Source of the DNA: Tubiluchus corallicola
Lineage: Eukaryota > Animalia > Priapulida
NCBI GenBank assembly: GCA_030141605.1
Contig: JAQGDQ010000164.1
Location: 186,001 to 250,000 of the forward strand
DNA: 64,000 nt
Reading direction: 5' to 3'
Part shown: positions 29,345-53,730 of the stretch, piece by piece
Layout: every line of letters starts with the position of its first letter
Numbering within the stretch: the stretch's first letter is position 1
Program-made: the position numbers and the translations under genes
The notes under the pieces: generated by a model
Database searches by the model: none
Told to the model about the DNA's origin: nothing
What the model saw: only the letters and a program-made list of their open reading frames with translations

Positions 29345-32255
29345 TGTTGTTAGAGCCCGCGTGTCGCAAAGCAGTTAAATATTCGCGAGGAACGTAGGGA
29401 ACAACAATTTTCTTCTTTTTTGTTAATGTTGAACTATTTGGCAAGGAAGCGGAGTTTGAAATTATTTTTTAGCAGACGGAAAGAAAACCGCTTTTGCGTT
29501 AATTTTTTTACATAGAGTTTTGTGTTGTTTTGCATCTTTGTAAGTTTTAATAAATGCCTTTAGAGTTCTGATTAATCCACGAGTCTGAAGCATTTGTTTT
29601 CGCCTGCCTGCGTTTATTATTTGCAGGTTGTCTGTCTTGTTTGAAACGAGCGCTTACCCGGACATCAGAGGGGACGCCCATTTCTTCCCCTCGCACAGGT
29701 GAAGTTTTTTGTTAAATTTAATCATCAATGACCAATGATAGAAGTGCTACTCGGAACGTAAAAGGTGGGCATTTTCAATTATGGTGCCGGAGTAGCCGGG
29801 ACATTGAACCCAATTACAGAATAAAACTAAGTAAAAGTAATGTAAAAGGCTGCACTCGCAAGTGTAAAATACAAAGGTGCTAAACTCATCTCAGTTACTA
29901 TGGCATATTGCAACTATAAAACAGAGTGCACAAATTCAGAACAGTCTGTGACTATAGATATAGGGATGAATGGAGACAAGGTTTACGATTCCAAGTGCAC
30001 CTTTGGAACTGCTCTTCAAAGAAGTGGTTAAAATTTATCGCAGTAATTTAGAAAGGCACTTACAAGTAGCCGAGGAATTGTTGAGCAATTTTATAGGTTC
30101 GGCCGAGCAAGCGAAATTGACAAAAGAGTTTAATACAAAATTGCCAACATCGCTTACGAGATTCGGAAATACTTGTGTAAAGTTGGTAGACTGAACTGAA
30201 ACGTAAACAGCTATTCAGTATTTCAAGCTAGAGATGAATTATTGGAAGGAAATTGTGTGCTATTTGAAAAGACTTGTAATATAGTAGAAAGGTTAAAAAT
30301 ATTAGACATTTGTGCTCAACAAGCAATGAAATTTGTAAAAAGCCAATGTGAAAATGCTCTTGGGCCTACTGAATTTAATTTTGCACCCGAGAATCAAGAT
30401 GTGGCTAATGGTCACTTAAATGACTTTTCAACTAAAATAAAAGGTCCCCAATGTGTGAAAATGGAAGGTGGAGTACAGTTAAGCCTGAATGGTGCTTGTG
30501 GTGACATGGAAAACTACGTGGGAATACAACAAACAATTACCCTAAGCCCAGTAGTTATAAAGAGACTTACCACTATAAATATACTCTGCCAACTGAGTCA
30601 GATGTGACATATGAAACACCAAAATTTAGTGATTCTGGGCAGAATTTAACAAATGATTTCATTGTTAGTGATTGTGAGTCATTTAAAAATCACTTTTGTG
30701 CGAACTCCACAAATGCGCCTAATTATAACTTGAGCACTAAGAACGCCAACAGTCTGCTGTTTAATAGAGATTTAATATCTGACATCAGTGCGTTTCACGT
30801 AACACCTCCTTCTGTAACCAACTCTAGTACTGCTAATTGTGTGATTTGACATTGTAGTACTGTAAGATTTCTCAGCTTAGAGCTAGATAGATTTACAGGC
30901 AATCCCCTACAATGGCCCAGTTTCCTACAAGTCTTCCTTGCGAATGTGCATCACAATGAATCTATTAGCACGAATGAAAAATTCAGTCTTTGCTGCAGAG
31001 GCAATCATGTTAGTTAATTGAAAGTTTGGTTCTTGATGATGCAAATTATGAAAATGCAATGGAATTGTTACATGATGAGTATGGTGATCCTGATAATACT
31101 GTGGCATAAAACCACTATTAAACAATGCTACTGAACTGAAGTTGTTTCTAAGAACATTTGTTATAGTGGCTAGAAATTTGGCTTCTTTGGGTCAAAATAC
31201 AGAAACTCCAATCTTGGCACAGCAAATGCTAGAAAAGCTGCCCAGAAGTTTTTTCCTATTATTATTAACATCGCCGAGGTGGTCCGAAAACTGTATCAGC
31301 TTCTGTGAGCTTATGCTCGTGTGCTAGCTGAGACTGAAGAGACAATTAACAATGCACATCGTAATGATTTTACTGATGTCTCCATGGTCTATAGCAATCG
31401 AGCATATAATACACATTCTGTGCATGAAAATGCACATTCCTGCACGTCACATAGTGAACGAGCAAACACATTTAGAACACAAAATGCAGATGTAGCAAGA
31501 CACCAAACTTATTAAGATAAGCCCTTGCAACACACGACTTTGTTCAAAAGTAATAGTAACAGTGCTTCATTTCAAACTACATCTGTCACTGCAATAGACG
31601 GTAATAGGGCATTAGCATATAGCTACAGTAGCAAAAATAATAGCAATTCAAAACCCAACTGGCCCTGCTATTGTTGTCAAGAAGTAGCAAAAAGACCATT
31701 TTGCCGCTGATTGCAAACAATATTCAACTGCACAAGAACGTTCACTAATTCTAATAGATAGGTGACAGAGATGCTTAAAGTTGGGACCACATAACTTATT
31801 ACTAATGCAAAACTAAGGGTCACCGTGACTCGCTCTGTCCTATACAATTTCCCACACCAAATGAACAAACTGAAACAGCATTTTGACCAATTCAGACACA
31901 CTTGTAGTACCTGAGTGGCAATGACTACTTATCTAAATTTTTAACAGGAGAAAACCTAGAAGTTCAACCGGATGTGTATGTCATTGGTTCTGTGCTCAGA
32001 TTCTTATTAGGAGGGTTCTACTTGTCACATGAGCTAATTGGACAGCAGATTAGTCTAACGCTTGACCCAGTTTTACATTTGAATGAAAACACGGGTCTAT
32101 TGTCAGATGAACAATGGATGTGAGGCCAGAATCAGAACTCATCAAAGGTTTCCAACCTACAGAAGGTTCACTGTTCACAACAGTATCAGTCATCGAATCA
32201 TCAGTGACACACTTAAATAAAAATTGGGTCTCAGACCCAACCCAAGTTGTACTTG
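29345..32255 (+). mobile_element. Decayed BEL/Pao LTR retrotransposon: putative 5' LTR ~29345-29777, PBS ~29782-29801, gag remnant
   Basis: TG...CA ends with an internal AATAAA; PBS-like TGGTGCCGGAGTAGCCGGGA. LELDRFTGNPLQWPSFLQVF...NYENAMELLHDEYGDP (DUF1759-like), MLEKLP, and a CYCC...HFAADC knuckle. Many stops and frameshifts; no pol or 3' LTR seen. Confidence 0.8.
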
Positions 32256-32260
32256 AACAA

Positions 32261-35200
32261 ACATTGCGTTACATTGCGTTAAATTAGGTGCAACAATCTA
32301 AACATGGCACGACATGGTGGAATGATAAATGGTCACTACCACGATGTAAATATGAGTCATATGATATACCAAGTAATTTAAGTAAAACTAAACATATTAG
32401 ACCTTACTTGCCTATTCTTTGTAAGTAAAGAGCTTGACCAAGGTCCCCGTTTCTCTTCCCAGCATTAATCAACCTAGTAAAAGTTTAAATTATTTTCATT
32501 CAGTTTCGTTTCTGTGAACTCGTGTGGGCTGTGTGCAGCTCTTCGCATGATTTGACATGAGGTTTTGGCCCCTAAGCTACCAACTGCCTAATTAATGTGC
32601 ATGCATTATGCCCAACAATATCATCATCATTATCAACAGTGTTCATGTTTCATGCCAAATCATCCCAGAACTCACCACGAGGAGGTGGCTGCACTTGAGT
32701 TCCACCTAACTAACTTAATTAAAGGTAATAATAAGATATTATCTAATAGATCGATTAAATAATTACCATAATAAATTTGTCAAAAAAATTAATCCAGCAT
32801 TGCCTACTTGCAGTTGAAGTCTAACTACGAAAGGAGAAAGGAACTGATGTTAAAAGAGCAATACTAGCTAAAAGTTAGTAAGTCTATTGTTCTACATAAT
32901 ATACAATGTACTACGTACTAACTTAGGTGTAACATTCTAATCATGGCACGACGTGGTGGAACGATAAATGGTCACTACCATGATGTGAATATGAGTGATA
33001 AGATATAGTAGATGTAGGTAAACGTAAACATATTTAGATAAAGTATACATTGCGTTAAATTAGGTGCAACAATCTAATCATGGCACGACATGGTGGAACG
33101 ATAAATGGTCACTACCACGATGTAAATATGAGTCATATGATATACCAAGTAATTTAAGTAAAACTAAACATATTAGACCTTACTTGCCTATTCTTTGTAA
33201 GTAAAGAGCTTGACCAAGGTCCCCATTTCTCTTCCCAGCCTTAATCAGCCTAGCAAAAGTTTAAATTATTTTCATTCAGTTTCATTTCTGTGAACTCGTT
33301 TGGGCTGTGTGCAGCTCTTCGCATGATTTGGTATGAGGTTTTGGCCCTAAGCTACCAACTGCCTAACTATGATAAATAATTATTGCAAAATTTTACATTT
33401 GCGTGCATTATGCCCAACAATATCATCATCATCATTATCAACAGTGTTCATGTCTCATGCCAAATCATCCCAGAACTCACCACGAGGAGGTGGCTGCACT
33501 TGAGTTCCACGTAACTAACTTAATTAAAGGTAATAATAAGATATTATCTAATAGATCGATTAAATAATTACCATAATAAATTTGTCAAAAAAATTAGTCC
33601 AGTATTGCCTACTTGCAGTTGAAGTCTAACAACGAAAGGAGAAAGGAACTGATGTTAAAAGGGCAATACTCGCTAAAAGTTAGTAAGTCTATTGTTCTAC
33701 ATAATATACAATGTACTAACTTAGGTGTAACATTCTAATCATGGCACGACGTGGTGGAACGATAAATGGTCACTACCATGATGTGAATATGAGTGATAAG
33801 ATATAGTAGATGTAGGTAAACGTAAACATATTTAGATAAAGTATACATTGCGTTAAATTAGGTGCAACAATCTAATCATGGCACGACATGGTGGAATGAT
33901 AAATGGTCACTACCACGATGTAAATATGAGTCATATGATATACCAAGTAATTTAAGTAAAACTAAACATATTAGACCTTACTTGCCTATTCTTTGTAAGT
34001 AAAGAGCTTGACCAAGGTCCCCGTTTCTCTTCCCAGCCTTAATCAGCCTAGTAAAAGTTGAAATTATTTTCATTCAGTTTCGTTTCTGTGAACTCGTGTG
34101 GGCTGTGTGCAGCTCTTCGCATGATTTGGCATGAGGTTTTGGCCCCTAAGCTACCAACTGCCTAACTAATGTGCATGCATTATGCCCAACAACATCATCA
34201 TCATTATTATCAACAGTGTTCATGTCTCATGCCAAATCATCCCAGAACTCACCACGAGGAGGTGGCTGCACTTGAGTTCCACCTAACTAACTTACTTAAA
34301 GGTAATAATAAGATATTATCTAATAGATCGATTAAATAATTACCATAATAAATTTGTCAAAAAAATTAATCCAGCATTGCCTACTTGCAGTTGAAGTCTA
34401 ACTACGAAAGGAGAAAGGAACTGATGTTAAAAGGGCAATACTCGCTAAAAGTTAGTAAGTCTATTGTTCTACATAATATACAATGTACTAACTTAGGTGT
34501 AACATTCTAATCATGGCACGACGTGGTGGAACGATAAATGGTCACTACCATGATGTGAATATGAGTGATAAGATATAGTAGATGTAGGTAAACGTAAACA
34601 TATTTAGATAAAGTATACATTGCGTTAAATTAGGTGCAACAATCTAATCATGGCACACCATGGTGGAATGATAAATGGTCACTACCACGATGTAAATATG
34701 AGTCATATGATATACCAAGTAATTTAAGTAAAACTAAACATATTAGACCTTACTTGCCTATTCTTTGTAAGTAAAGAGCTTGACCAAGGTCCCCGTTTCT
34801 CTTCCCAGCCTTAATCAGCCTAGTAAAAGTTTAAATTATTTTCATTCAGTTTCGTTTCTGTGAACTCGTGTGGGCTGTGTGCAGCTCTTCGCATGATTTG
34901 GCATGAGGTTTTGGCCCCTAAGCTACCAACTGCCTAACTAATGTGCATGCATTATGCCCAACAACATCATCATTATTATCAACAGTGTTCATGTCTCATG
35001 CCAAATCATCCCAGAACTCACCACGAGGAGGTGGCTGCACTTGAGTTCCACCTAACTAACTTACTTAAAGGTAATAATAAGATATTATCTAATACATCGA
35101 TTAAATAATTACCATAATAAATTTGTCAAAAAAATTAATCCAGCATTGCCTACTTGCAGTTGAAGTCTAACTACGAAAGGAGAAAGGAACTGATGTTAAA

Positions 35201-38200
35201 AGAGCAATACTAGCTAAAAGTTAGTAAGTCTATTGTTCTACATAATATACAATGTACTAACTTAGGTGTAACATTCTAATCATGGCACGACGTGGTGGAA
35301 CGATAAATGGTCACTAAATGGTCACTACCATGATGTGAATATGAGTGATAAGATATAGTAGATGTAGGTAAACGTAAACATATTTAGATAAAGTATACAT
35401 TGCGTTAAATTAGGTGCAACAATCTAATCATGGCACGACATGGTGGAACGATAAATGGTCACTACCACGATGTAAATATGAGTCATATGATATACCAAGT
35501 AATTTAAGTAAAACTAAACATATTACACCTTACTTGCCTATTCTTTGTAAGTAAAGAACTTGACCAAGGTCCCCATTTCTTTTCCCAGCCTTAATCAGCC
35601 TAGCAAAAGTTTAAATTATTTTCATTCAGTTTCATTTCTGTGAACTCGTGTGGGCTGTGTGCAGCTCTTCGCATGATTTGGTATGAGATTTTGGCCCTAA
35701 GCTACCAACTGCCTAACTATGATAAATAATTATTGCAAAATTTTACATTTGCGTGCATTATGCCCAACAATATCATCATTATCAACAGTGTTCATGTCTC
35801 ATGCCAAATCATCCCAGAACTCACCACGAGGAGGTGGCTGCACTTGAGTTCCACCTAACTAACTTACTTAAAGGTAATAATAAGATATTATCTAATAGAT
35901 CGATTAAATAATTACCATAATAAATTTGTCAAAAAAATTAGTCCAGTATTGCCTACTTGCAGTTGAAGTCTAACAATGAAAGGAGAAAGGAACTGATGTT
36001 AAAAGGGCAATACTCGCTAAAAGTTAGTAAGTCTATTGTTCTACATAATATACAATGTACTAACTTAGGTGTAACATTCTAATCATGGCACGACATGGTG
36101 GAACGATAAATGGTCACTACCATGATGTGAATATGAGTGATAAGATATAGTAGATGTAGGTAAACGTAAACATATTTAGATAAAGTATACATTGCGTTAA
36201 ATTAGGTGCAACAATCTAATCATGGCACGACATGGTGGAATGATAAATGGTCACTACCACGATGTAAATATGAGTCATATGATATACCAAGTAATTTAAG
36301 TAAAACTAAACATATTAGACCTTACTTGCCTATTCTTTGTAAGTAAAGAGCTTGACCAAGGTCCCCATTTCTCTTCCCAGCCTTAATCAGCCTAGTAAAA
36401 GTTTAAATTATTTTCATTCAGTTTCGTTTCTGTGAACTCGTGTGGGCTGTGTGCAGCTCTTCGCATGATTTGGCATGAGGTTTTGGCCCCTAAGCTACCA
36501 ACTGCCTAACTAATGTGCATGCATTATGCCCAACAACATCATCATTATTATCAACAGTGTTCATGTCTCATCACCACGAGGAGGTGGCTGCACTTGAGTT
36601 CCACCTAACTAACTTACTTAAAGGTAATAATAAGATATTATCTAATACATCGATTAAATAATTACCATAATAAATTTGTCAAAAAAATTAATCCAGCACT
36701 GCCTACTTGCAGTTGAAGTCTAACTACGAAAGGAGAAAGAACTGATGTTAAAAGAGCAATACTCGCTAAAAGTTAGTAAGTCTATTGTTCTACATAATAT
36801 ACAATGTACTAACTTAGGTGTAACATTCTAATCATGGCACGACGTGGTGGAACGATAAATGGTCACTACCATGATGTGAATATGAGTGATAAGATATAGT
36901 AGATGTAGGTAAACGTAAACATATTTAGATAAAGTATACATTGCGTTAAATTAGGTGCAACAATCTAATCATGGCACGACATGGTGGAACGATAAATGGT
37001 CACTACCATGATGTAAATATGAGTCATATGATATACCAAGTAATTTAAGTAAAACTAAACGTATTAGACCTGACTTGCCTATTCTTTGTAAGTAAAGAGC
37101 TTGACCAAGGTCCCCGTTTCTCTTCCCAGCCTTAATCAGCCTAGTAAAAGTTTAAGATATTTTCATTCAGTTTCGTTTCTGTGAACTCGTGTGGTCTGTG
37201 TGCAGCTCTTTGCATGATTTGGCATGAGGTTTTGGCCCCTAAGCTACCAACTGCCTAACTAATGTGCATGCATTATGCCCAACAACATCATCATCATTAT
37301 TATCAACAGTGTTCATGTCTCATGCCAAATCATCCCAGAACTCACCACGAGGAGGTGGCTGCACTTGAGTTCCACCTAACTAACTTACTTAAAGGTAATA
37401 ATAAGATATTATCTAATAGATCGATTAAATAATTACCATAATAAATTTGTAAAAAAAATTAATCCAGCATTGCCTACTTGCAGTTGAAGTCTAACTACGA
37501 AAGGAGAAAGGAACTGATGTTAAAAGAGCAATACTAGCTAAAAGTTAGTAAGTCTATTGTTCTACATAATATACAATGTACTAACTTAGGTGTAACATTC
37601 TAATCATGGCACGACGTGGTGGAACGATAAATGGTCACTACCATGATATGAATATGAGTGATAAGATATAGTAGATGTAGGTAAATGTAAACATATTTAG
37701 ATAAAGTATACTTTGCGTTAAATTGGGTGCAACAATCTAATCATGGCACGGCATGGTGGAACGATAAATGGTCACTACCACGATGTAAATATCAGTCATA
37801 TGATATAGAAAGTAATTTACGTAAAACTAAACTTATTAGACCTTACTTGCCTATTCTTTGTAAGTAAGGAGCTTGACCAAGGTCCCCGTTTCTCCTCCCA
37901 GCCTTAATCAGCCTAGTAAAAGTTTAAATTATTTTCATTCAGTTTCGTTTCTGTGAACTCGTGTGGGCTGTGTGCAGCTCTTCGCATGATTTGGCATGAG
38001 GTTTTGGCCCCTAAGCTACCAACTGCCTTCCTATGATAAATAATTATTGCAAAATTTTACATTTGCATGCATTATGCCCAACAATATCATCATCATCATC
38101 ATTATCAACAGTGTTCATGTTTCATGCCAAATCATCCCAGAACTCACCACGAGGAGGTGGCTGCACTTGAGTTCCACCTAACTAACTTAATTAAAGGTAA

Positions 38201-41200
38201 TAATAAGATATTATCTAATAGATCGATTAAATAATTACCATAATAAATTTGTCAAAAAAATTAATCCAGCATTGCCTACTTGCAGTTGAAGTCTAACTAT
38301 GAAAGGAGAAAGGAACTGATGTTAAAAGAGCAATACTAGCTAAAAGTTAGTAAGTCTATTGTTCTACATAATATACAATGTACTAACTTAGGTGTAACAT
38401 TCTAATCATGGCACGACGTGGTGGAACGATAAATGGTCACTACCATGATGTGAATATGAGTGATCAGATATAGTAGATGTAGGTAAACGTAAACATATTT
38501 AGATAAAGTATACATTGCGTTAAATTAGGTGCAACAATCTAATCATGGCACGACATGGTGGAATGATAAATGGTCACTACCATGATGTAAATATGAGTCA
38601 TATGATATACCAAGTAATTTAAGTAAAACTAAACATATTAGACCTTACTTGCCTATTCTTTGTAAGTAAAGAGCTTGACCAAGGTCCCTATTTCTCTTCC
38701 CAGCCTTAATCAGCCTAGTAAGAGTTTAAATTGTTTTCATTCAGTTTCATTTCTGTGAACTCGTGTGTGCTGTGTGCAGCTCTTCGCATAATTTGGCATG
38801 AGGTTTTGGCCCCTAAGCTACCAACTGCCTAACTAATGCCGCGATGCTTCCACAATATCATCATCATCATCATTATCAATATAGTGTTCATACTTAGTGC
38901 TAACCATCCAGAACTCCACTAATGATGAGGCAGCTGCAATTTGGAGTTCCAGCCGCAATCACTTGTGAATGAAGGTAATAATAAGACATTATCTAATAGA
39001 TCAGATTAAATAATTTTTCATTTAGTAATAAATTGTCAAAAAATTAGTCCAGTAATGTCACTTCTTGTAAAGTTGAAGTCTAACAATTATATGAGAAAGA
39101 CAACCGATATACAGTATTAGATTTTTAAAAGTTAGTAAGTCTATTGTTCTACATAATATACAATGTACTAACTTAGGTGTAACATTCTAATCATGGCACG
39201 ACGTGGTGGAACGATAAATGGTCACTACCATGATGTGAATATGAGTGATAAGATATAGTAGATGTAGGTAAACGTAAACATATTTAGATAAAGTATACAT
39301 TGCGTTAAATTGGGTGCAACAATCTAATCATGGCACGACATGGTGGAACGATAAATGGTCACTACCATGATATGAATATGAGTGATAAGATATACCAAGT
39401 AATTTAAGTAAAACTAAACGTATTAGACCTGACTTGCCTATTCTTTGTAAGTAAAGAGCTTGACCAAGGTCCCCGTTTCTCTTCCCAGCCTTAATCAGCC
39501 TAGTAAAAGTTTAAGATATTTTCATTCAGTTTCGTTTCTGTGAACTCGTGTGGTCTGTGTGCAGCTCTTTGCATGATTTGGCATGAGGTTTTGGCCCCTA
39601 AGCTACCAACTGCCTAACTAATGTGCATGCATTATGCCCAACAACATCATCATCATTATTATCAACAGTGTTCATGTCTCATGCCAAATCATCCCAGAAC
39701 TCACCACGAGGAGGTGGCTGCACTTGAGTTCCACCTAACTAACTTACTTAAAGGTAATAATAAGATATTATCTAATAGATCGATTAAATAATTACCATAA
39801 TAAATTTGTAAAAAAAATTAATCCAGCATTGCCTACTTGCAGTTGAAGTCTAACTACGAAAGGAGAAAGGAACTGATGTTAAAAGAGCAATACTAGCTAA
39901 AAGTTAGTAAGTCTATTGTTCTACATAATATACAATGTACTAACTTAGGTGTAACATTCTAATCATGGCACGACGTGGTGGAACGATAAATGGTCACTAC
40001 CATGATATGAATATGAGTGATAAGATATAGTAGATGTAGGTAAATGTAAACATATTTAGATAAAGTATACATTGTGTTAAATTAGGTGCAACATTCTAAT
40101 CATGGCACGGCATGGTGGAACGATAAATGGTCACTACCACGATGTAAATATCAGTCATATGATATAGAAAGTAATTTACGTAAAACTAAACTTATTAGAC
40201 CTTACTTGCCTATTCTTTGTAAGTAAGGAGCTTGACCAAGGTCCCCGTTTCTCCTCCCAGCCTTAATCAGCCTAGTAAAAGTTTAAATTATTTTCATTCA
40301 GTTTCGTTTCTGTGAACTCGTGTGGGCTGTGTGCAGCTCTTCGCATGATTTGGCATGAGGTTTTGGCCCCTAAGCTACCAACTGCCTTCCTATGATAAAT
40401 AATTATTGCAAAATTTTACATTTGCATGCATTATGCCCAACAATATCATCATCATCATCATTATCAACAGTGTTCATGTTTCATGCCAAATCATCCCAGA
40501 ACTCACCACGAGGAGGTGGCTGCACTTGAGTTCCACCTAACTAACTTACTTAAAGGTAATAATAAGATATTATCTAATAGATCGATTAAATAATTACCAT
40601 AATAAATTTGTCAAAAAAATTAATCCAGCATTGCCTACTTGCAGTTGAAGTCTAACTACGAAAGGAGAAAGGAACTGATGTTAAAAGAGCAATACTAGCT
40701 AAAAGTTAGTAAGTCTATTGTTCTACATAATATACAATGTACTAACTTAGGTGTAACATTCTAATCATGGCACGACGTGGTGGAACGATAAATGGTCACT
40801 ACCATGATGTGAATATGAGTGATAAGATATAGTAGATGTAGGTAAACGTAAACATATTTAGATAAAGTATACATTGCGTTAAATTAGGTGCAACAATCTA
40901 ATCATGGCACGACATGGTGGAATGATAAATGGTCACTACCATGATGTAAATATGAGTCATATGATATACCAAGTAATTTAAGTAAAACTAAACATATTAG
41001 ACCTTACTTGCCTATTCTTTGTAAGTAAAGAGCTTGACCAAGGTCCCCATTTCTCTTCCCAGCCTTAATCAGCCTAGTAAGAGTTTAAATTGTTTTCATT
41101 CAGTTTCATTTCTGTGAACTCGTGTGTGCTGTGTGCAGCTCTTCGCATAATTTGGCATGAGGTTTTGGCCCCTAAGCTACCAACTGCCTAACTATGATAA

Positions 41201-41780
41201 ATAATTATTGCAAAATTTTACATTTGCATGCATTATGCGCTACAATATCATCATCATCATTGTCAACAGTGTTCATGTTTCATGCCAAATCATCCCAGAA
41301 CTCACCACGAGGAGGTGGCTGCACTTGAGTTCCACCTAACTAACTTAATTAAAGGTAATAATAAGATATTACCTATAGATCGATTAAATAATTACCGTAA
41401 TAAATTTGTCAAAAAAATTAATCCAGCACTGCCTACTTGCAGTTGAAGTCTAACTACGAAAGGAGAAAGGAACTGATGTTAAAAGAGCAATACTCGCTAA
41501 AAGTTAGTAAGTCTATTGTTCTACATAATATACAATGTACAAACTTAGGTGTAACATTCTAATCATGGCTCGACGTGGTGGAACGATAAATGGNNNNNNN
41601 NNNNNNNNNNNNNNNNNNNNNNNNNNNNNNNNNNNNNNNNNNNNNNNNNNNNNNNNNNNNNNNNNNNNNNNNNNNNNNNNNNNNNNNNNNNNNAACGATA
41701 AATGGTCACTACCATGATGTGAATATGAGTGTTGATATACCAAGTAATTTAAGTAACACTAAACATATTAAACCTTACTT
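32261..41780. repeat. Tandem array of ~750-800-bp units, 12 before the gap, unresolved length
   Basis: Unit starts near 32261, 33039, 33838, 34610, 35390, 36182, 36931, 37703, 38505, 39290, 40062, 40864; N-gap at 41594-41693. Confidence 0.97.
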
Positions 41781-43900: not shown

Positions 43901-45502
43901 AAAGCTCATGCAGTACGTAGCAAAAAGTTGTTTATTATTATTAAAGGCAAATGCTGATTAATATGACTTGGCAGGCTTTACCAATGACAATGACAATGAC
44001 AATGACAATGATAATACTTTTCTCACTCTTGCAATTATTTAAAGGAATAAATTAACTGAAGTAAGCTAATTTCCATAAGGACCGAAAACATACAAATGTA
44101 GAAAAGCCTAGCCAGCGCACAAGGCAGTTTGGGTTTGCATCTTTTTAAGAAGAGCAGTCATGTCATTCCATCTTGCTCAGACAGTGTACTTAGATTCAGC
44201 ATTAAAATCATGGAAGCAACTTTTCTAGGTGTGATGCACAGTCAAAGACTGAAGAATCGATTTGTGGCAATGACTGCCGTATTACGACTCAGCTTTGGTA
44301 GTTATATAGGATAGGATAATTACGTTAGGTAGACGAATTAAACCACTTTATGTGAAGTTAAATTACTAATTTGTTCTGTTTAATTAAGTAACTTCTCCCT
44401 ATCAATAATATTTTGTCTATTTTGTTTTTATTAATTTTGCATCCCTAAGTTTTGCCGAACACATTATGTAGTTATAAATCAATCTAATCTGACACTCTAT
44501 TAACTTACATGAGATTTTGTCGAAATAATAAGAGTTGACATTAATTAAACTAAAGACCACAAAATTATTTGTTTACAATTATCCAAAATGAAGTAGGAAA
44601 AGTTACTACTTACATGTCGCAAATTTTCTACTTAACGATGTGTCTAACAAAATGCAACACTGTTGTGCTATGAAAACTATATTTATTATTACTAATGTAA
44701 TGAAACCTGTCAATGTTCTCTAAGTCAACCAACAGCCTTGCCCAGGTAAATACAGATAAGTACAGGTGAATGGTCATAGTCAAGTAATCAACAAGATACA
44801 TGGCAAAATTCCCATTACCGCCCCCTTAAATGCGACGTCACAGAGCATTTTCCATTTGCAATTCATTTACTTACTGCTTCTCTCAGTCATGCATAACTAG
44901 TTGATGTAACATTTCAGTGAACATTCTTGAATCTTTAAGGTAGCTGTCTGGACAATTCTATGGCTAGGATGTACTTCTTGTACTTTTCGAAGGCATCAAT
45001 AACTTCTAGGAGTATATTCGTCTTTTTATGAGTATCACGTCTTCTATGCGAATTAGCTCTTTCAACTTGCTCCATTTGAATTGTACTTAAAGTAGGAGAA
45101 GATATTCCTTAAGCCATCTTCTCCAAAATGTGTAAGCCATATGTTGGATTTGCTGCCAAAGTTTTCTGTAAATCTCAAAGCTGCTAAAGCCCCTGGAGCG
45201 ATTTGATTAAGGTGTCAGTGCTTCACTGAGAGAGGTTGAAGAATTCAACACGTGAATAATTCCCACCCGTATGGGTCTACTTAAAGTCCAACCCAAGCCT
45301 ATCTTGGTGCATGGGGTGCTGAATGTGCCGGCTTTGTCTAACTTCCAGGGCATCGGAGTGAAGAGTGGTAAATCTTCCATGTATGACCACTTAAGGGTGT
45401 ATGTGCTTCTCTAAAAATTGGATCAGAAAATCGGTTGATACAATAAGTTGATACAACTATTTCGCTATCTCTACTGCTGACCTTAACACAAAAGGCAAAA
45501 CT

Positions 45503-46287
45503 ACATTGTGTTCTTGGCTGCTATCAAATGTAACACATTGTCTTGTTGGCTGCTATCAAATGTAACACATTGTCTTCTTGGCTGCTATCAAATGTAACAC
45601 ATTGTATTCTTGGCTGCTATCAAATGTAACACATTGTATTCTTGGCTGCTATCAAATGTAACACATTGTCTTCTTGGCTGCTATCAAATGTAACACATTG
45701 TCTTCTTGGCTGCTATCAAATGTAACACATTGTCTTCTTGGCTGCTATCAAATGTAACACATTGTCTTCTTGGCTGCTATCAAATGTAACACATTGTCTT
45801 CTTGGCTGCTATCAAATGTAACACATTGTCTTCTTGGCTGCTATCAAATGTAACACATTGTCTTCTTGGCTGCTATCAAATGTAACACATTGTCTTCTTG
45901 GCTGCTATCAAATGTAACACATTGTCTTCTTGGCTGCTATCAAATGTAACACATTGTCTTCTTGGCTGCTATCAAATGTAACACATTGTCTTCTTGGCTG
46001 CTATCAAATGTAACACATTGTCTTCTTGGCTGCTATCAAATGTAACACATTGTCTTCTTGGCTGCTATCAAATGTAACACATTGTCTTCTTGGCTGCTAT
46101 CAAATGTAACACATTGTCTTCTTGGCTGCTATCAAATGTAACACATTGTCTTCTTGGCTGCTATCAAATGTAACACATTGTATTCTTGGCTGCTATCAAA
46201 TGTAACACATTGTATTCTTGGCTGCTATCAAATGTAACACATTGTATTCTTGGCTGCTATAAAATGTAACACATTGTATTCTTGGCT
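45503..46287. repeat. 32-bp minisatellite, about 24 copies, inside the BEL element
   Basis: Unit acattgtcttcttggctgctatcaaatgtaac. Confidence 0.97.
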
Positions 46288-47379
46288 TCTAATTGTTACT
46301 CTTCTGTGGTCTGGTTTTCTGTCATGAAGAAAGCCTCACGAAGTAAGACTGAGTGCTTCCACGAAGATGATAGTAAACAGCTTTGTGGTTTCCGTGACCC
46401 AAATGCTTAAAACAAAGTTAAATCTTCTTTGCGAATCAGACTTGGTTTGTTTACCTCTTAAATTGCCTGCAATTTTGTAACTGATTTTTTTTCTGAGCAT
46501 AAACTGCATTATGTAAGCACAATTTTCTTCGAAAACTGCTCAAAACTTCAGCTGCAAATCTTTTCACTGTGCTTGCTTTTCCTGTGTGCTCTTAGTAATT
46601 TGCCTCTTTTTTGTTTCACTGATCAAGCAACCAAAACACGAGATGAGCAATTTCATCAGCTGCTTATTGAAGAAAGCTCACAGCATCATGTATGTCACGA
46701 TTTCTTCTTTCCCAATTTAAGTACTAGTGTCTGTCTGCCACCAGCTTCATTATTTAAAGGTTGACAGTTGTCTTATTTGCAAGCGGTTACTCCTAGTGTT
46801 AACTTTATTCAAGCAGTTTATTGAAGCTAAAGTATCTGTACATCTGCTCAGTAAATCAGCACAGTTTTGTAGCTTCTCTCCCTTCTTGGGACATTATGCT
46901 TCTAAAGCTGAGTATTTCTTTTATTCATGTTTGTGTGACCAAAAATCACCATAAGGCTGACTAAACATGTTGCCTGAGCAGATAATTTTGCTCACTGATA
47001 GTTTTTCATGACTCGTGTAGGTACACTTTTCCCTTAATTGTTTTGTTTTTCCACTACATAGTTGTGAGAATCGGGCAAATCTAGCTGATTTGTCATCGGT
47101 ATATCTCTCGACTCTTGCTTCGTTTTGATTCATAAAATTCCTCAAATGTAAACTGTTCACTATCAAAACGTTTCTACTTCTGCTTTAGAAAGCCCTTAAG
47201 TTTGATATGTATTGTGCTGTTGGGCCTGATTTTCCGGCATGAGTTTGGCTATTATAGTTAAATCGTCTTGCCAGGTGCCAACCTGTTTTTCATCTAAGTT
47301 TGCTCTTTTGGCTGCACATCGGACTTGAAAGTGGGCACTGAAGCATTTAACTGAGAAGACCCCTTTAGACACCCAATCA

Positions 47380-48110
47380 ATAAAAGACGGCACATGCAAT
47401 AATACATTTCCAACCAGTGTCTGTGATAAAGTGTTATCGACGGCATTACACTCATTATTTTAAATACTGCCAAGGTTTTCCTTGCCCAATAAAATCAATA
47501 ATTTTGATATTATCACGAAAAGTTTGACTGCAGAAAGTTAGATGTAAGGCAGTTCTGTAAGAGTGTTCATATCATAATAGGTAAATGGCAGGTGGTTTGA
47601 TTCCAATTAGCAACCCCAGTCATCATAACTACCATTCTCATTAGCTAAATATGATAATTGCTCATAATAAGTGTTCTGACTGAGTTTACAAACATGAACT
47701 CCAGAAATGAATTTATAGGGCCAGCTGATGTCGGGTGCAGGTGAAAACTTTTTGCTACCAAATAAATCATCAATGTTTTTAACGCAAATATCTAGTTTCC
47801 AGTCAGCATCCAGGAACACACATTTGGAAAACTTAGTCACCCGCCAGCTTTGTAGTTTTGCAAACATAATGCCAACTTCTGATCAACCCAGCAACTCCAC
47901 AAGAACACAAAATTCAGAGTCAAAAATTTTGACTTTCTCAACATGGTCAAATACCTGGTGAAATAGCAGCATCATTTTGTTTGAGATGCCATCCATTGTC
48001 ATAACAAATAATTTGAGTGAAGTTTCTATCACTTTCAGGAAATTCTCTAGAACTATGGCACCCACAGCATATTCATCCCTTGTGGCTGGTGTGACGTAGG
48101 CCTGATCATT
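47380..48110 (-). pseudogene. GYG1: Intronless glycogenin catalytic (GT8) domain, disabled, embedded in BEL gag
   Basis: NDQAYVT..TRDEYAVGAIVL...QVFDHV...KLQSWRVTKFSKCVFLDAD...NIDDLF..KFSPAPDISWP..FISGVHV...HLPFTY...IIDFIGQGKPWQY is colinear with glycogenin MTDQAFVTL...KCVFMDAD...ELSAAPDPGWP...HLPFIY...VHFLGRVKPW. Contains stops and frameshifts. Confidence 0.92.
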
Positions 48111-49224
48111 TATTTCAGTTTTTAGGAAATTTTCTTCAATCCAATTTTTGGCACTAGGTGGTACTACTAACTTGTCTGCCTGAATTTAATCGAAAAAGCA
48201 GCTGTCAGCACCTGAATGTTCATAATCATATGCTATTTCATATTTTTAATTTTCTGATATATAAGATATTGTTTTCTAGTAGTACTCAATTGTTTCATCT
48301 TATTTTTCAAGTATTGCCTTGTTTTCTTCAAAAGCTGCTCCTCGTCATCAAATACTGATGCAGCCTGCAAAGGTTTTTCTTCTTTTCCTCTAGTTCTAAC
48401 AATGCTTTGCAAAACGTCTGCCTTTTGGGATAAAGAAGCTGATTTTACCTTAGACTTGATTCGACATGATTTAACCTGGAAGTTGAGACTTGACTTGTGC
48501 TATCTGTAAGTGAGACTTCTGCATTGGATGAGCACGCTCTTTTCACTGTGGACTTCTGAAGTTTAACTAGTTTAATTTTAGTTCCAGAGACTTTCAACCC
48601 TTTTGTCTACAACTATTTTTCAGCTGTTCCACAGTAAGGCTACCGAACTGATCTTGTGATATCTCAGCAATGAACTTGATTTTCAATTGATAAATATTCA
48701 GGTCTCAGCTGTGATTTTTCTAGCAGCACACAAATAAGCCTCCTAAAATGCTGAATCTACATCAAAGCCTGACTTATTTAGTCCACATACTATGCTCGCA
48801 TAAGGTATACAACCCTGTTTTCTTGATCGTGAAGACTATAAATGACAGTACTAGAATCAATGACTACCATATTCCAACTCACTTTTCTGGTGTCTATAAA
48901 ATAAAAAAGTCACTACAATTTTGTACTTGCAATGAGGATAATTACGTCAGTTCGACAAATTAAACCCATTTATATGACGCTAAGATAATGAAATTTACTC
49001 CAATCTAATAAACTTTTCCATATCAATAATAATTTTTGATAATTTGTCTATTTTGTCACAGTTAATTTTGTAGTTCTAAATCTTACTAAACACAATATCT
49101 AGTTATAAATAAACTTCGCTAGTCATCGATTAATAAGAGTTGGCATTAATTAGACTAAATTGCTGGATTATAAAAATACAATATAATTAAAAAATATGTA
49201 TTTACTTACATTGTATGTTTCCAT

Positions 49225-50699
49225 AGCAGGTAAGATCCTGGCACGTGTCCTACTAAATCAATTGTTGCTGCACCTGGAGAAAGACCTCCCAGAAAGCCAG
49301 TGTGGCTTTAGAGCAAGCAGAGGAATGGTGGATATGATCTTTGCTGCAAGACAACTTCAAGAGAAGTACCAAGAACAGAACGTCTGCCTCTTCACAACAT
49401 TCACAGACCTCACCAAGGCTTTTGATACTGTCAGTAGGAATGGCCTCTGGAAGATCATGGAAAAATATGGATGCCAAAAGAAGTTTATTGATATTATGCG
49501 GCAGTTTCATGAAGACGTGATGGTCAGAGTCCTAGATGATGGAGATATGTCTGAAGCCTTTGAAATAACAAATGGGGTGAAACAGGGCTGTGTACTCGCT
49601 CCAACACTCTTCAGCATGATGTTCTCTACCATGTTACATGATGCGTTTGAAAACACCCAGGATGGCATTAAGATAAAATACAGAACAGATGGCAGCCTCT
49701 TCAATTCCAGGTGCTTGCAAGCTACCACAAAGACTCTCAGTGCTACCTCCCAAGAACAAATGCAAAAAGAGATGGACCACTTTGCATCAGCCTGCAAGAA
49801 CTACGGCCTAACAATCTCTACAAAGAAAACTGAAGTTATGTACCAACCAGCCCCAGGCGCCCCACAGATTCAGCCAAAGATCTTAGTGAATGGTCAAGAA
49901 CTTATCTCTGTTGACAGCTTCACATACCTGGGGAGCACCGTTACCACAGCTGTCAACAATGATACAAAAATCAGCAACAGAATTGCCAGGGCTAGCATTT
50001 CATTTGGAAGACTCCTCTCCAACGTATGGGACAGGAGAGGCATCAGAACCACCACAAAATTGAAGGTGTATAGAGCTGTCGTCATCACTACTCTCCGCTA
50101 TGCCAGCGAATCCTGGACATTATATAGGAGACACGTAAAACAGCTTAACTACTTTCACATGGGCTGTCTGAGGAAAATCCTGCACATCAAGTGACAGGAC
50201 AAGGTGCCAGTCACAGAGGTACTTAAAAGAGCTGACCTCCCCAGTGGGCAGGCCATGTGATTCGCATGCCAGACAACCGCATACCAAAGAAGATGCTCTA
50301 TGGAGAACTTGTGTCGCAAAAGAGAAAGGTTGGACGACCAAAGAAATGCTTCAAAGACAGCCTGAAGGCCTCACTCAAGGAGCTCAGCATGGATATCCGC
50401 TCAATGGAAACCCTTGCACAATATCGCTCAGCATGGCGGAGTGCCATCACCACAGGTGCTGTTAGCAGAGGCGAAAAGAATTGAGGAGGCAGAGGAGAAG
50501 TGCAGGAGATGCAAGGCATGTGACACTGCCCATCAACAGGTCCAAACACCCAGCCTCACCTGTGCCAAATGCCAAAGAAGTTTCCAGGCCAGAATTGGCC
50601 TAGTCAGTCAACTTCGAGCTCATCAAAGGAATGACAACCCCCCAAACTGACCCTTTATCCCTGTCACTATGGTCATCTTCGATTCGAAGGACGAACATC
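49225..50699 (+). mobile_element. 5'-truncated RTE-clade LINE with 10-bp TSD ATGTTTCCAT
   Basis: RT motifs PESQCGFR, DLTKAFDTV, GVKQGCVLAPTLF; C-terminal CAKCQRSFQARIGLVSQ. TSD at 49215-49224 and 50700-50709. The FADD motif is deleted. Confidence 0.93.
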
Positions 50700-52239
50700 A
50701 TGTTTCCATTAAACAAATTTACGTATTATGAAATTAAATGCTTGTACGAAATTACAATAACTAAAGTAAACTAAACAATGATGGGTAGATAATACCTGGT
50801 TTTTGGCAATGATGCATTCGTAAAATGTGCAATGGAAAGAGATCACACATAAAACGTCAAAATAATAAGCTGCTGAGTAAAATTATTTGGAGTTGATGAT
50901 TGATAGTGGTTTACAAAAACTTGCTCAAATCTAACAGCAAACAATTTTTACCTACTTTAAACATTACAATTACACCAACTCCCCCACAGAACGGTTGATT
51001 TTCAATAACATTTTTTCTAGAAAGTATTATAGTTAACAAGTGTTATATATTCTAAATAATAAAAACCTGGGGGAAATCTATAAGATTCAGTTATGTACCT
51101 GAACACGATCGTTCACTATACATAGTGTGAGTCGTGCAACATACTGTTCAGAAAATATTAAAAATAACTACTGCAAGACCAGTATCAGGTATAGACTTGA
51201 TGAGGTTTTTGACTGTGTCAAAAACACTGGTATCTCATATTCAGCAGTGCAGAGTAAGTCGACCCTTAATCACACATAAATTGCAGCCTATCTCAAATAC
51301 TAAAGGGGCACATACAGCCAGGAGAAAATAAATATTCGTCCACTTCACAAATTTTGATCCAGGGCTATACCGTTGCCTGAGCCCTTACCCTTAGTGTCTA
51401 CTGTACAAGTTTGGCAACTCTAGGTACTCTAGTTTTGGAGTTATTCGCTGTTGTAGTGGAGAAACAATAATGAACGATTTATTTCAATAACATTCTGCAA
51501 ATATTGCATAATCTTAAATAATTGAAACCTAGGGCAAATCAATAGGATTCAGTTATGTATCTTAACAAGATTGTTTACTATGCAAAGTGTGGCTTGTGCA
51601 ATAAACTGTTCAGAAAAAATTAATAATAACTACTGCAAGACCAGTATAAGGTATAGACTAGATGACGTTTTTGAGTGTGTCAAAAACAGTGATAACTCAT
51701 TTTCAGCCATGCACAAAAACTCAACTTCACTTAATCGCATAAACTGTGGTCCTGGCTCAAAAACAGGAGGACACAGCACTGGACAGGACACAGAACATTC
51801 ATATAAACGTAGTTTCTCTTGCCTAGTAAGTGTTCACTATGAGCTGCATGGATAACTCTGCGCACATGCAATTATTAAAGATGCACGAAAATAAATATAA
51901 ATAATAAAAACCGAGGACAAATCAAGAAGATACTGCCACATAGCAGAATATTAAAAACATGTCAACAAGTATGGCTAAACATGCAAACTTACCAGATCGA
52001 TGATTTTCATGTTCAGTTCGTGACATCATATATCCCTTTCCACTGCTCATCTACTGACATGATCATTCCAGAATTCCTTATCCCTTACCAAGTACCAACA
52101 TTCTTGCAGTTCATTTATTCTTCAGTTTACTGAAATAAAATAGACGAGTAAGTTCAATATAATTTTGCTTTGGCCGTGACCTGATCAGCAAACTTAAGCA
52201 CACTTTAGTTTAAGTACTTACCTGTTGTTTACCTGAAAA

Positions 52240-53730
52240 TTTTCCATATCAATAATAATTTTTGATAATTATTATGTCTATTTTGTCATTGTTAATTTTG
52301 CAGTTCTAAGTCTTACTAAACACAATATCTAGTTATAAATAAACATTGCTAGTCATCGAATTAATAAGAGTTGGCATTAATTAGACTAAATTGCAGGAAA
52401 TTGCTGCATTATAAAAATACAATATAATTAAAAAATATGTATTTACTTACATTGTATGTTTCCATAGCAGGTAAGATCCTGGCACGTGTCCTACTAAATC
52501 AACTGTTGCTGCACCTGGAAAAAGACCTTCTCCCAGAGAGCCATTGTGGCTTTAGAGCAGGCAGAGGAATGGTAGATATGATCTTTGCTGCAAGACAACT
52601 TCAAGAGAAGTGCCAAGAACAGAATGTCTGCCTCCTCACAATATTCATGGACCTCACCAAGGCTTTTGATACTGTCAGTAGGAATGGCCTCTGGAAGATC
52701 ATGGAAAAATATGGATGGCCAAAAAGTTTATTGATATTGTGTGGCAGTTTCATGAAGGCATGATGGTCAGAGTCCTAGATGATGGAGATATGTCTGACGC
52801 CTTTGAATTAACACACGAGGTAAAACAGGGCTGTGTACTCGCTCCAACACTCTTCAGCATGATGTTCTCTGCCATGTTACATGATGCGTTTGAAAACACC
52901 CAGGATGGCATTAACGTAAAATACAAAACAGATGGCAGCCTCTTCAACTCCAGGCGCTTGCTAGCTACCACCAAGACCCATGTAACCACATTCAAAGACT
53001 TTCTCTTTGCTGATGACTGCACTCTCAGTGCCACCTCCCAAGAACAAATGCAAAAAGAGATGGACCACTATGCAAAGTGTTGCTTGTGCAATAAACTGTT
53101 CAGAAAATATTAATAATAACTACTGCAAGACCAGTATAAGGTATAGACTAGATGACGTTTTTGAGTGTGTCAAAAGTGATAACTTACATTCAGCCATGCA
53201 CAAAAACTCGACTTCACTTAATCGCATAAACTGTGGTCCTGGCTCAAAAACAGGAGGACACAGCACTGGACAGGACACAGAACATTCATATAAACGTAGT
53301 TTCTCTTGCCTAGTAAGTGTTCACTATGAGCTGCATGGATAACTCTGCGCATATGCAATTATTAAAGATGCACGAAAATAAATATAAATAATAAAAACCG
53401 AGGACAAATCAAGAAGATACTGCCACATAGCAGAATATTAAAAACATCTCAACAAGTATGACTAGACATGCAAACTTACCGGATCAATGATGTTCATGTT
53501 CAGTTCGTGACATCATATATCCCTTTCCACTGCTCATCTACTGACATGATCATTCCAGAATTCCTTATCCCTTACCAAGTACCAACATTCTTGCAGTTCA
53601 TTTATTCTTCAGTTTACTGAAATAAAATAGACGAGTAAGTTCAATATAATTTTGCTTTGGCCGTGACCTGATCAGCAAACTTAACCACACTTTAGTTTAA
53701 GTACTTACCTGTTGTTTACCTGAAAATTTT
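52240..53730 (+). repeat. Second, internally deleted copy of the 49013-52240 segment
   Basis: 52240-53067 matches 49013-49780; 53068-53730 matches 51577-52240. Confidence 0.9.
52465..53067 (+). mobile_element. RTE LINE fragment, duplicate of the 49225 insertion, retaining LFADD
   Basis: Same 5' junction (tgtttccat|agcaggtaag); frameshift near 52715. Confidence 0.92.

What the first reader, a model, noticed from the sequence alone, without database searches (positions are those of the whole stretch)
44812..48720. BEL/Pao retrotransposon whose Gag contains a captured glycogenin catalytic domain
Seen: an intronless glycogenin GT8 domain (47380-48110) lies in the same orientation between the N-terminal part of a BEL gag (SAP-like motif, DSTSQVS, coiled coil) and the DUF1759-like and zinc-knuckle part. 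At the 5' junction the frame runs KNWIEENFLKTEI straight into NDQAYVT with no Met. At the 3' junction HVPSFID continues in one frame to QT*GLSKAEVETF, the usual start of the BEL capsid-like region. No poly(A) tail or TSD is visible at either junction. The segment is trimmed to the catalytic domain: the DXD motif (FLDAD) and a Tyr aligning with the autoglucosylated Tyr195 are present, while the C-terminal glycogen-synthase-binding tail is absent. Known: LTR elements can capture mRNA by template switching, and glycogenin self-glucosylates and dimerises. Inference: an ancestral active family encoded a Gag-glycogenin fusion, possibly giving self-glucosylating or glycogen-associated particles. I know of no description of this arrangement. 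This copy is dead.
Basis: partly seen in the sequence, partly recalled or inferred. Interest (0 to 1): 0.92.

Follow-up and report, generated by a model that had tools for sequence, protein, structure and literature searches.

The report
Glycogenin domain captured inside retrotransposon Gag
An old, broken jumping gene carries the enzyme part of the glycogen-priming gene inside its particle-protein gene, likely picked up from host messenger RNA and present in a second diverged copy, but whether the two ever worked as one protein is untested.

Summary
The core observation holds. An intronless glycogenin GT8 segment (firm 48113-47470, minus strand; E 2.5e-35 to human glycogenin-1) lies sense-wise inside the gag of a decayed, pol-deleted BEL/Pao remnant bounded by an LTR-like pair. 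Its invariant residues have decayed as far as the LTRs (about 0.2 changes per site), so it was likely already in the element, with an intact core, at insertion. In an independent run, one contig that is roughly 80% alike carries both GT8 and gag pieces across the 3' junction, so a second copy exists. Not confirmed: the frame at the 3' junction, the SAP motif, and the gag identity of the N-terminal part. Against a working fusion: no fused protein turned up in any search, one diverged record seems to share the frameshift inside GT8, and 12 core residues are missing. Best reading: template-switch capture of glycogenin mRNA by a BEL element, later copied, function unproven (0.6). A selected Gag-glycogenin family stays open (0.25). 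The scan had not noted glycogenin capture before; it had noted other cargo in LTR elements.

The parts
44219..44814 (-). 3' LTR-like repeat (ends approximate)
   Evidence: 246 of 367 aligned columns (67%) match the 5' repeat, against 50 of 113 beyond it; begins just after a purine run
44818..44827 (-). polypurine-tract-like run
   Evidence: read from the sequence; not tested statistically
45018..45251 (-). BEL integrase C-terminal remnant (DUF5641)
   Evidence: Pfam PF18701 E 1.7e-8; tblastn of BEL polyproteins, best E 5e-8
45503..46291 (.). 32-bp minisatellite, 24.7 copies, lying where protease, RT, RNase H and the integrase core are missing
   Evidence: no pol-core hits
46388..47276 (-). BEL gag: linker end, DUF1759-type capsid and zinc-knuckle region, with several frame changes and stops
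   Evidence: frameshift-aware alignment to L081 gag residues 166-454, z 17; L089, z 10; both carry DUF1759
47277..47469 (-). 3' junction zone: probably the last GT8 helix plus gag linker; boundary and frame undetermined
   Evidence: bridged by a diverged contig in run X3
47470..48113 (-). intronless glycogenin GT8 segment (host residues about 1-220): 3 stops, one frame change near 47517-47523, a 12-residue deletion near 47621, three small in-frame insertions
48114..48720 (-). probable gag N-terminal part (SAP-like start, DSTSQ motif, coiled-coil-like stretch), by eye and position only
   Evidence: z about 1 against two BEL gags; no SAP hit; pieces shared with a diverged copy
48816..49225 (-). 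5' LTR-like repeat, outer part replaced by an RTE-like non-LTR fragment
   Evidence: high depth and loose ends at 49225 in other copies; RVT_1 E 4e-26 next to it; the label RTE is recalled, not from a call

Best explanation
This is a decayed, pol-deleted BEL/Pao LTR-element remnant whose gag holds an intronless glycogenin catalytic segment, likely captured from host mRNA by template switching during reverse transcription, likely before this copy integrated, and present in at least one further diverged copy. Shown: the anatomy, the missing introns, equal decay of GT8 and LTRs, and one diverged contig carrying GT8 and gag together. Inferred: host glycogenin mRNA was packaged with element RNA, RT switched onto it and back, and the chimera was moved as cargo, by its own or a helper element's enzymes. 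On this reading the GT8 is a passenger that need not have been translated with the capsid.
For: Crosses four conserved intron sites without an intron. Both ends are cut within the coding sequence and the tail is missing, which fits two template switches and not a poly(A)-primed retrocopy. 49 of 75 near-invariant residues kept; neutral simulation gives 49.3 at d=0.20, and the LTR pair gives 0.19-0.22 per copy. X3 contig at depth 78.3 joins 47240>47297 and 47358>47518; the depth arithmetic reproduces all 6 bins tested within 0.2; the same four listed differences occur in X1 and X4. The mechanism is documented across animals (PMC5131818, abstract and passages). One diverged record (X4, 93 letters, 16 differences, 0 gaps) spans the GT8 frame change, which fits cargo that was copied although broken.
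Against: In PMC5131818 the retrocopy replaced part of the element's ORFs in all 15 Drosophila cases; here gag spacing without GT8 (191-220 codons) lies between that of two GT8-less relatives (153, 232), so little seems replaced, as in a tolerated domain insertion. Variable positions are more diverged than neutral decay of a typical host glycogenin predicts (23 of 104; P about 0.03), which hints at a period under selection. The X1 and X3 pieces stop at 47518, right at the frame change, as a copy without that break would. The second copy's flanks are unseen.
Confidence: 0.6

Rival explanations
1. An active BEL family encoded a selected in-frame Gag-glycogenin fusion. The GT8 would sit between the N-terminal coiled coil and the capsid, and dimerise or self-glucosylate on or in the particle; this copy and the diverged one would be independent insertions.
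For: GT8 lies in the variable linker with little gag lost and is trimmed to the catalytic domain; the 5' frame is open; core intact at insertion while variable sites are extra diverged; in the deepest run no host exon is laid at 80% over 47603-48006 although the second element copy is laid nearby; in X3 the diverged contig is 4.3 times as deep as this locus's contig.
Against: No gag-fused GT8 among the 150 best of 923 representatives (41 of 165 proteins scanned in Pfam), the 15 hits, or 80 of 414 metagenome loci. X4 record without a gap across the frame change. 3' frame undetermined. The depth excess is not seen in X1 (1.4 times) or X4 (about 1), and contig depth is no copy number. The null uses hosts that are not independent and were picked by likeness to the query.
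Confidence: 0.25
2. One capture event at this locus only, at about the time of insertion; the second copy is an old DNA-level duplication of the dead locus.
For: A break shared with the X4 record would follow directly. The second copy is about 83% alike in the one piece with a count (77 of 93), closer than the two LTRs are to each other (67-70%). Tandem duplication is common in this window.
Against: Laid pieces are the best-matching ones, so 83% is an upper figure. A diverged N-terminal contig differs in length from this copy by at least 174 bases (X2 record 15). The LTR-like part is far deeper than the interior, so the family did spread.
Confidence: 0.12
3. A processed pseudogene made by a non-LTR element landed later in an already dead BEL copy.
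For: A non-LTR RT fragment lies 500 bases away. GT8 shows fewer breaks per base (4 in 644) than the aligned gag path (13 in 889), though that path is noisy.
Against: The 3' part of the mRNA, where such a copy would be primed, is missing; no A-run at the printed junction; GT8 decay equals LTR decay.
Confidence: 0.03

Closest known systems
LTR-mediated retroposition of host mRNAs in animals (Tan et al. 2016, PMC5131818; abstract and 12 passages seen)
   Same: Intronless, sense-strand host fragment between two parts of one LTR element, no poly(A) or duplication at the joints.
   Different: There the retrocopy replaced part of the element's ORFs and most cases are young single loci; here gag appears nearly complete around the insert, the insert is one whole catalytic domain, it is old, and a second diverged copy exists.
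BEL/Pao (Belpaoviridae) LTR retrotransposons (PMC3118150 and PMC12440569, passages seen; L081, L083, L089 as worked examples)
   Same: DUF1759-type capsid and knuckle region, DUF5641 integrase end, LTR pair, purine tract.
   Different: Pol core missing; GT8 in the gag linker. The extra domains named in the passages seen are chromodomains on Gypsy pol and viral envelope genes, none a host enzyme in gag.
Animal glycogenin (GT8; PMC9188544, passages seen)
   Same: Catalytic domain, DXD, Tyr195 equivalent.
   Different: No linker and no 34-residue synthase-binding tail; 12 core residues missing; stops and a frame change.
Host-co-opted gag fusions Crtg10-KELP and Crtg14-PEX14 (PMC8321522, passages seen)
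   Same: A gag joined to a host gene; Crtg14 is BEL-derived.
   Different: Those are host genes kept under selection at fixed loci; this is a host domain inside a decaying element with LTRs.

Membership tests
BEL/Pao LTR retrotransposon | DUF1759-type capsid gag | tested here: met
   homology to 2 of 3 DUF1759-bearing gags, z 17 and 10; no direct Pfam hit
BEL/Pao LTR retrotransposon | zinc knuckles at the gag C-terminus | tested here: inconclusive
   the L081 alignment runs into its knuckle region; motif seen only by eye, broken
BEL/Pao LTR retrotransposon | protease, RT and RNase H (Peptidase_A17) in pol | tested here: not met
   no hit; filed as a deleted remnant, not a complete member, and no superfamily can be assigned
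BEL/Pao LTR retrotransposon | DUF5641 integrase C-terminus | tested here: met
   E 1.7e-8
BEL/Pao LTR retrotransposon | pair of direct LTRs | tested here: met
   67-70% alike; outer part of the 5' repeat is lost
BEL/Pao LTR retrotransposon | 4-6 bp target-site duplication | not testable with these tools
   the element's 5' end is replaced by a non-LTR fragment
glycogenin (GT8) | GT8 domain closest to glycogenin | tested here: met
   E 2.5e-35; of 10 top hits looked up, 8 carry animal species names
glycogenin (GT8) | DXD motif and Tyr195 acceptor | tested here: met
   alignment
glycogenin (GT8) | complete catalytic core | tested here: not met
   host residues 161-172 have no counterpart; 3 stops and a frame change
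glycogenin (GT8) | C-terminal synthase-binding tail | tested here: not met
   no match in the element from 165 proteins
glycogenin (GT8) | self-glucosylation, dimer | not testable with these tools
   needs a bench assay
LTR-mediated retrocopy | intronless, sense, flanked by parts of one LTR element | tested here: met
LTR-mediated retrocopy | part of the element's ORF replaced by the insert | tested here: inconclusive
   spacing within the range of two distant relatives; no close GT8-less parent on hand
LTR-mediated retrocopy | short shared sequence at the joints | not testable with these tools
   neither the host mRNA nor the parent element is held
LTR-mediated retrocopy | no poly(A) tail or duplication around the insert | tested here: inconclusive
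   none seen by eye; low power at about 20% decay

The most novel reading that the evidence does not exclude
A BEL/Pao family adopted the host's glycogenin catalytic domain as a standing part of Gag, between coiled coil and capsid, kept it under selection and spread with it: a retrotransposon particle protein that glucosylates itself.
Probability: 0.25. Interest if true: 0.8.

Novelty: new member of a known kind. Interest (0 to 1): 0.45.

Why it matters
As cargo it is one more, unusually tidy, case of mRNA capture by an LTR element. If the fusion was selected, it would be a host sugar-transferring enzyme built into a retroelement structural protein, which I did not find in print (searches; open-licence papers only, listings not read in full). 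It would raise testable questions on whether such particles coat themselves in glucan, use the GT8 dimer for assembly, or interfere with host glycogen priming. One look at an assembled genome would decide between the two.

Tried and rejected
No whole genome is held, so copies could not be pulled out. Pfam on whole frames and pieces: no GT8, DUF1759 or SAP hit; taken as decay, since phmmer and direct alignment succeed. One search used a frame that leaves gag after ten residues and is uninformative. The search for related loci with the window protein: 0 of 56 (metagenomes) and 0 of 2 (viral); with the alignment 0 of 56 and with the gag piece 0 of 87 in viral contigs; pattern scan of viral contigs 0. 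ESM Atlas: no usable hit for the two gag pieces, no evidence either way. Tree of the GT8 with 130 hosts: very long branch, placement without support, so no donor lineage is named. No RNA holder listed. X3 has no cover at 47603-48107: not used. Intron mapping succeeded for 11 of 14 exon pairs tried. The search for glycogenin with Tyr195 and His212 found 0 papers. A diverged contig's match ends at 48108, at the 5' junction; it may lack GT8 or simply end there, so it is not counted for or against. A closer look at the diverged contigs was not obtained, which leaves the 5' junction of the second copy and the shared-break question open.
Full report
What is there. On the minus strand, 48113-47470 encodes a decayed glycogenin catalytic domain. 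With stops read as X it matches 20 PDB sequences, 19 of them glycogenin-1 or -2, best E 2.5e-35. A frameshift-aware alignment to a profile of 130 glycogenins covers host residues 1-220 with stops at 47885, 47609 and 47540, one frame change (placed at 47523 by the script, 47515-47520 by eye), a 12-residue deletion near 47621 and three small in-frame insertions. The DXD motif and a tyrosine aligned to human Tyr195 are present. None of 165 related proteins matches the element outside GT8 at E below 0.8, so the linker and the synthase-binding tail (about 34 residues, PMC9188544, passages) are absent. Genomic glycogenin loci have introns at codons 48, 107, 161 and 203 (11 of 14 exon pairs resolved); the window copy crosses all four in 644 bases. 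It came through RNA.

The host element. Pfam finds DUF5641 near 45161-45018. To test gag I fetched nine contigs by an integrase motif; three hold full BEL coding regions with DUF1759. The stretch 47276-46388 aligns with the L081 gag over residues 166-454 (score 90 against 33 +/- 3 for 60 shuffles) and with L089 (78 against 35 +/- 4), not with L083. The part upstream of GT8 scores no better than shuffles (z about 1) and gives no SAP hit, so its gag identity rests on position and on a DSTSQ motif resembling DSVS in L081 and L089. A direct repeat pair, 67-70% alike, bounds the element at about 44219-44814 and 48816-49225, the 3' one after a purine run; a non-LTR RT fragment replaces the outer part of the 5' one. 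Protease, RT, RNase H and the integrase core are missing, and a 32-bp minisatellite lies in their place.

Junctions. The frame is open across the 5' joint, but the frame upstream is itself broken, so this does not show that gag read into GT8. The 3' frame is undetermined. Without GT8, the distance from the DSTSQ motif to the capsid start is 191-220 codons, against 153 and 232 in two relatives: GT8 looks added to the variable linker with little gag lost.

Timing. Of 75 columns conserved in at least 90% of 130 hosts, the copy keeps 49. Neutral simulation gives 49.3 at 0.20 changes per site, with 49 inside the 95% range from 0.15 to 0.25; the LTR pair gives 0.19-0.22 per copy. So the GT8 core was likely intact, and in place, when this copy integrated. 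At variable columns the copy keeps 23 of 104 where about 39 are expected (P about 0.03). That would fit earlier evolution under selection inside the element, or simply a divergent host gene; the null is weak.

A second copy. Four sequencing runs (two samples, two studies) hold the stretch. In X3 one contig of depth 78.3 matches 47166-47240, 47297-47358 and 47518-47594 in order, bridging the 3' junction with 62 and 77 letters; this reading reproduces all six depth bins tested. X1 and X4 carry the same four listed differences. So GT8 beside gag is not unique to this locus. Limits: the letters between the pieces, the 5' junction and the flanks of this copy were not seen; 71 difference rows and 240 pieces were cut from the output. 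The X4 record spans the GT8 frame change with 16 differences and no gap, while a one-base shift at 47514-47525 would alone give 18 or more: that copy seems to share the break. Yet the X1 and X3 pieces stop at 47518, as a copy without the break would. I could not settle this. Depth is 4.3 times this locus in X3 but 1.4 in X1 and about 1 in X4, and is no copy number.

No intact fusion found. The 150 best of 923 representatives are 34-46% alike; none matches the gag parts, and 41 scanned in Pfam, chosen for length or internal GT8, show no retroelement domain. Word-based searches gave 2 and 13 glycogenins (over 2000 residues not searched). The best 80 of 414 metagenome loci show no gag match. These blanks only say no annotated close relative is held.

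Mechanism. Most likely (0.6) RT switched from element RNA onto co-packaged glycogenin mRNA and back, and the chimera was copied as cargo. This process is described across animals (PMC5131818, abstract and passages), where 14 of 17 young Drosophila cases keep the parental frame without that showing function. A selected Gag-glycogenin fusion (0.25) is favoured by the clean domain boundaries, the linker site and the divergence pattern, and disfavoured by the apparently shared break, the core deletion and the blank searches. One event plus a duplication (0.12) and a late processed pseudogene (0.03) remain.

Known or new. Seven paper searches listed no title or abstract start on glycogenin in a retroelement; only listings were seen, subscription papers are not held, no supplements were read, and Repbase was not available. 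The scan's own notes hold no glycogenin case but two other captures in LTR elements, unchecked here; one pointed to PMC5131818. Verdict: a real, old capture and a new member of a known kind, with an open and cheaply testable chance of being a new Gag architecture. Interest 0.45.

Noticed in passing
window 47621 and 47517-47523 (also 47792): Two of the five indels in the GT8 copy fall at conserved glycogenin intron sites (codons 161 and 203) and a third within 3 codons of one (107); chance about 0.04 and 0.01, noticed after the fact. Could point to imprecise splicing at or after capture.
   Followed up: partly
window 46527-48022: Runs X1 and X2 hold a near-identical form lacking 1.5 kb, at about the depth of the full form (228.6 against 196.3 in X1): likely the other allele, which has lost most of GT8 and the capsid.
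   Followed up: no
window 30862-31106: Weak match (E 0.002) to the DUF1759 part of L083 on the plus strand: possibly a second BEL gag fragment.
   Followed up: no
window 32270-41500: Tandem array of about 12 units of roughly 780 bases, mostly 94-98% alike.
   Followed up: no
window 49010-49734 and 52236-52977: Local duplication (92%) of part of the 5' LTR-like repeat together with the non-LTR RT fragment.
   Followed up: no
L081, L083, L089: Full-length BEL/Pao coding regions lie in contigs of bacterial metagenome-assembled genomes; likely animal DNA binned by mistake.
   Followed up: no
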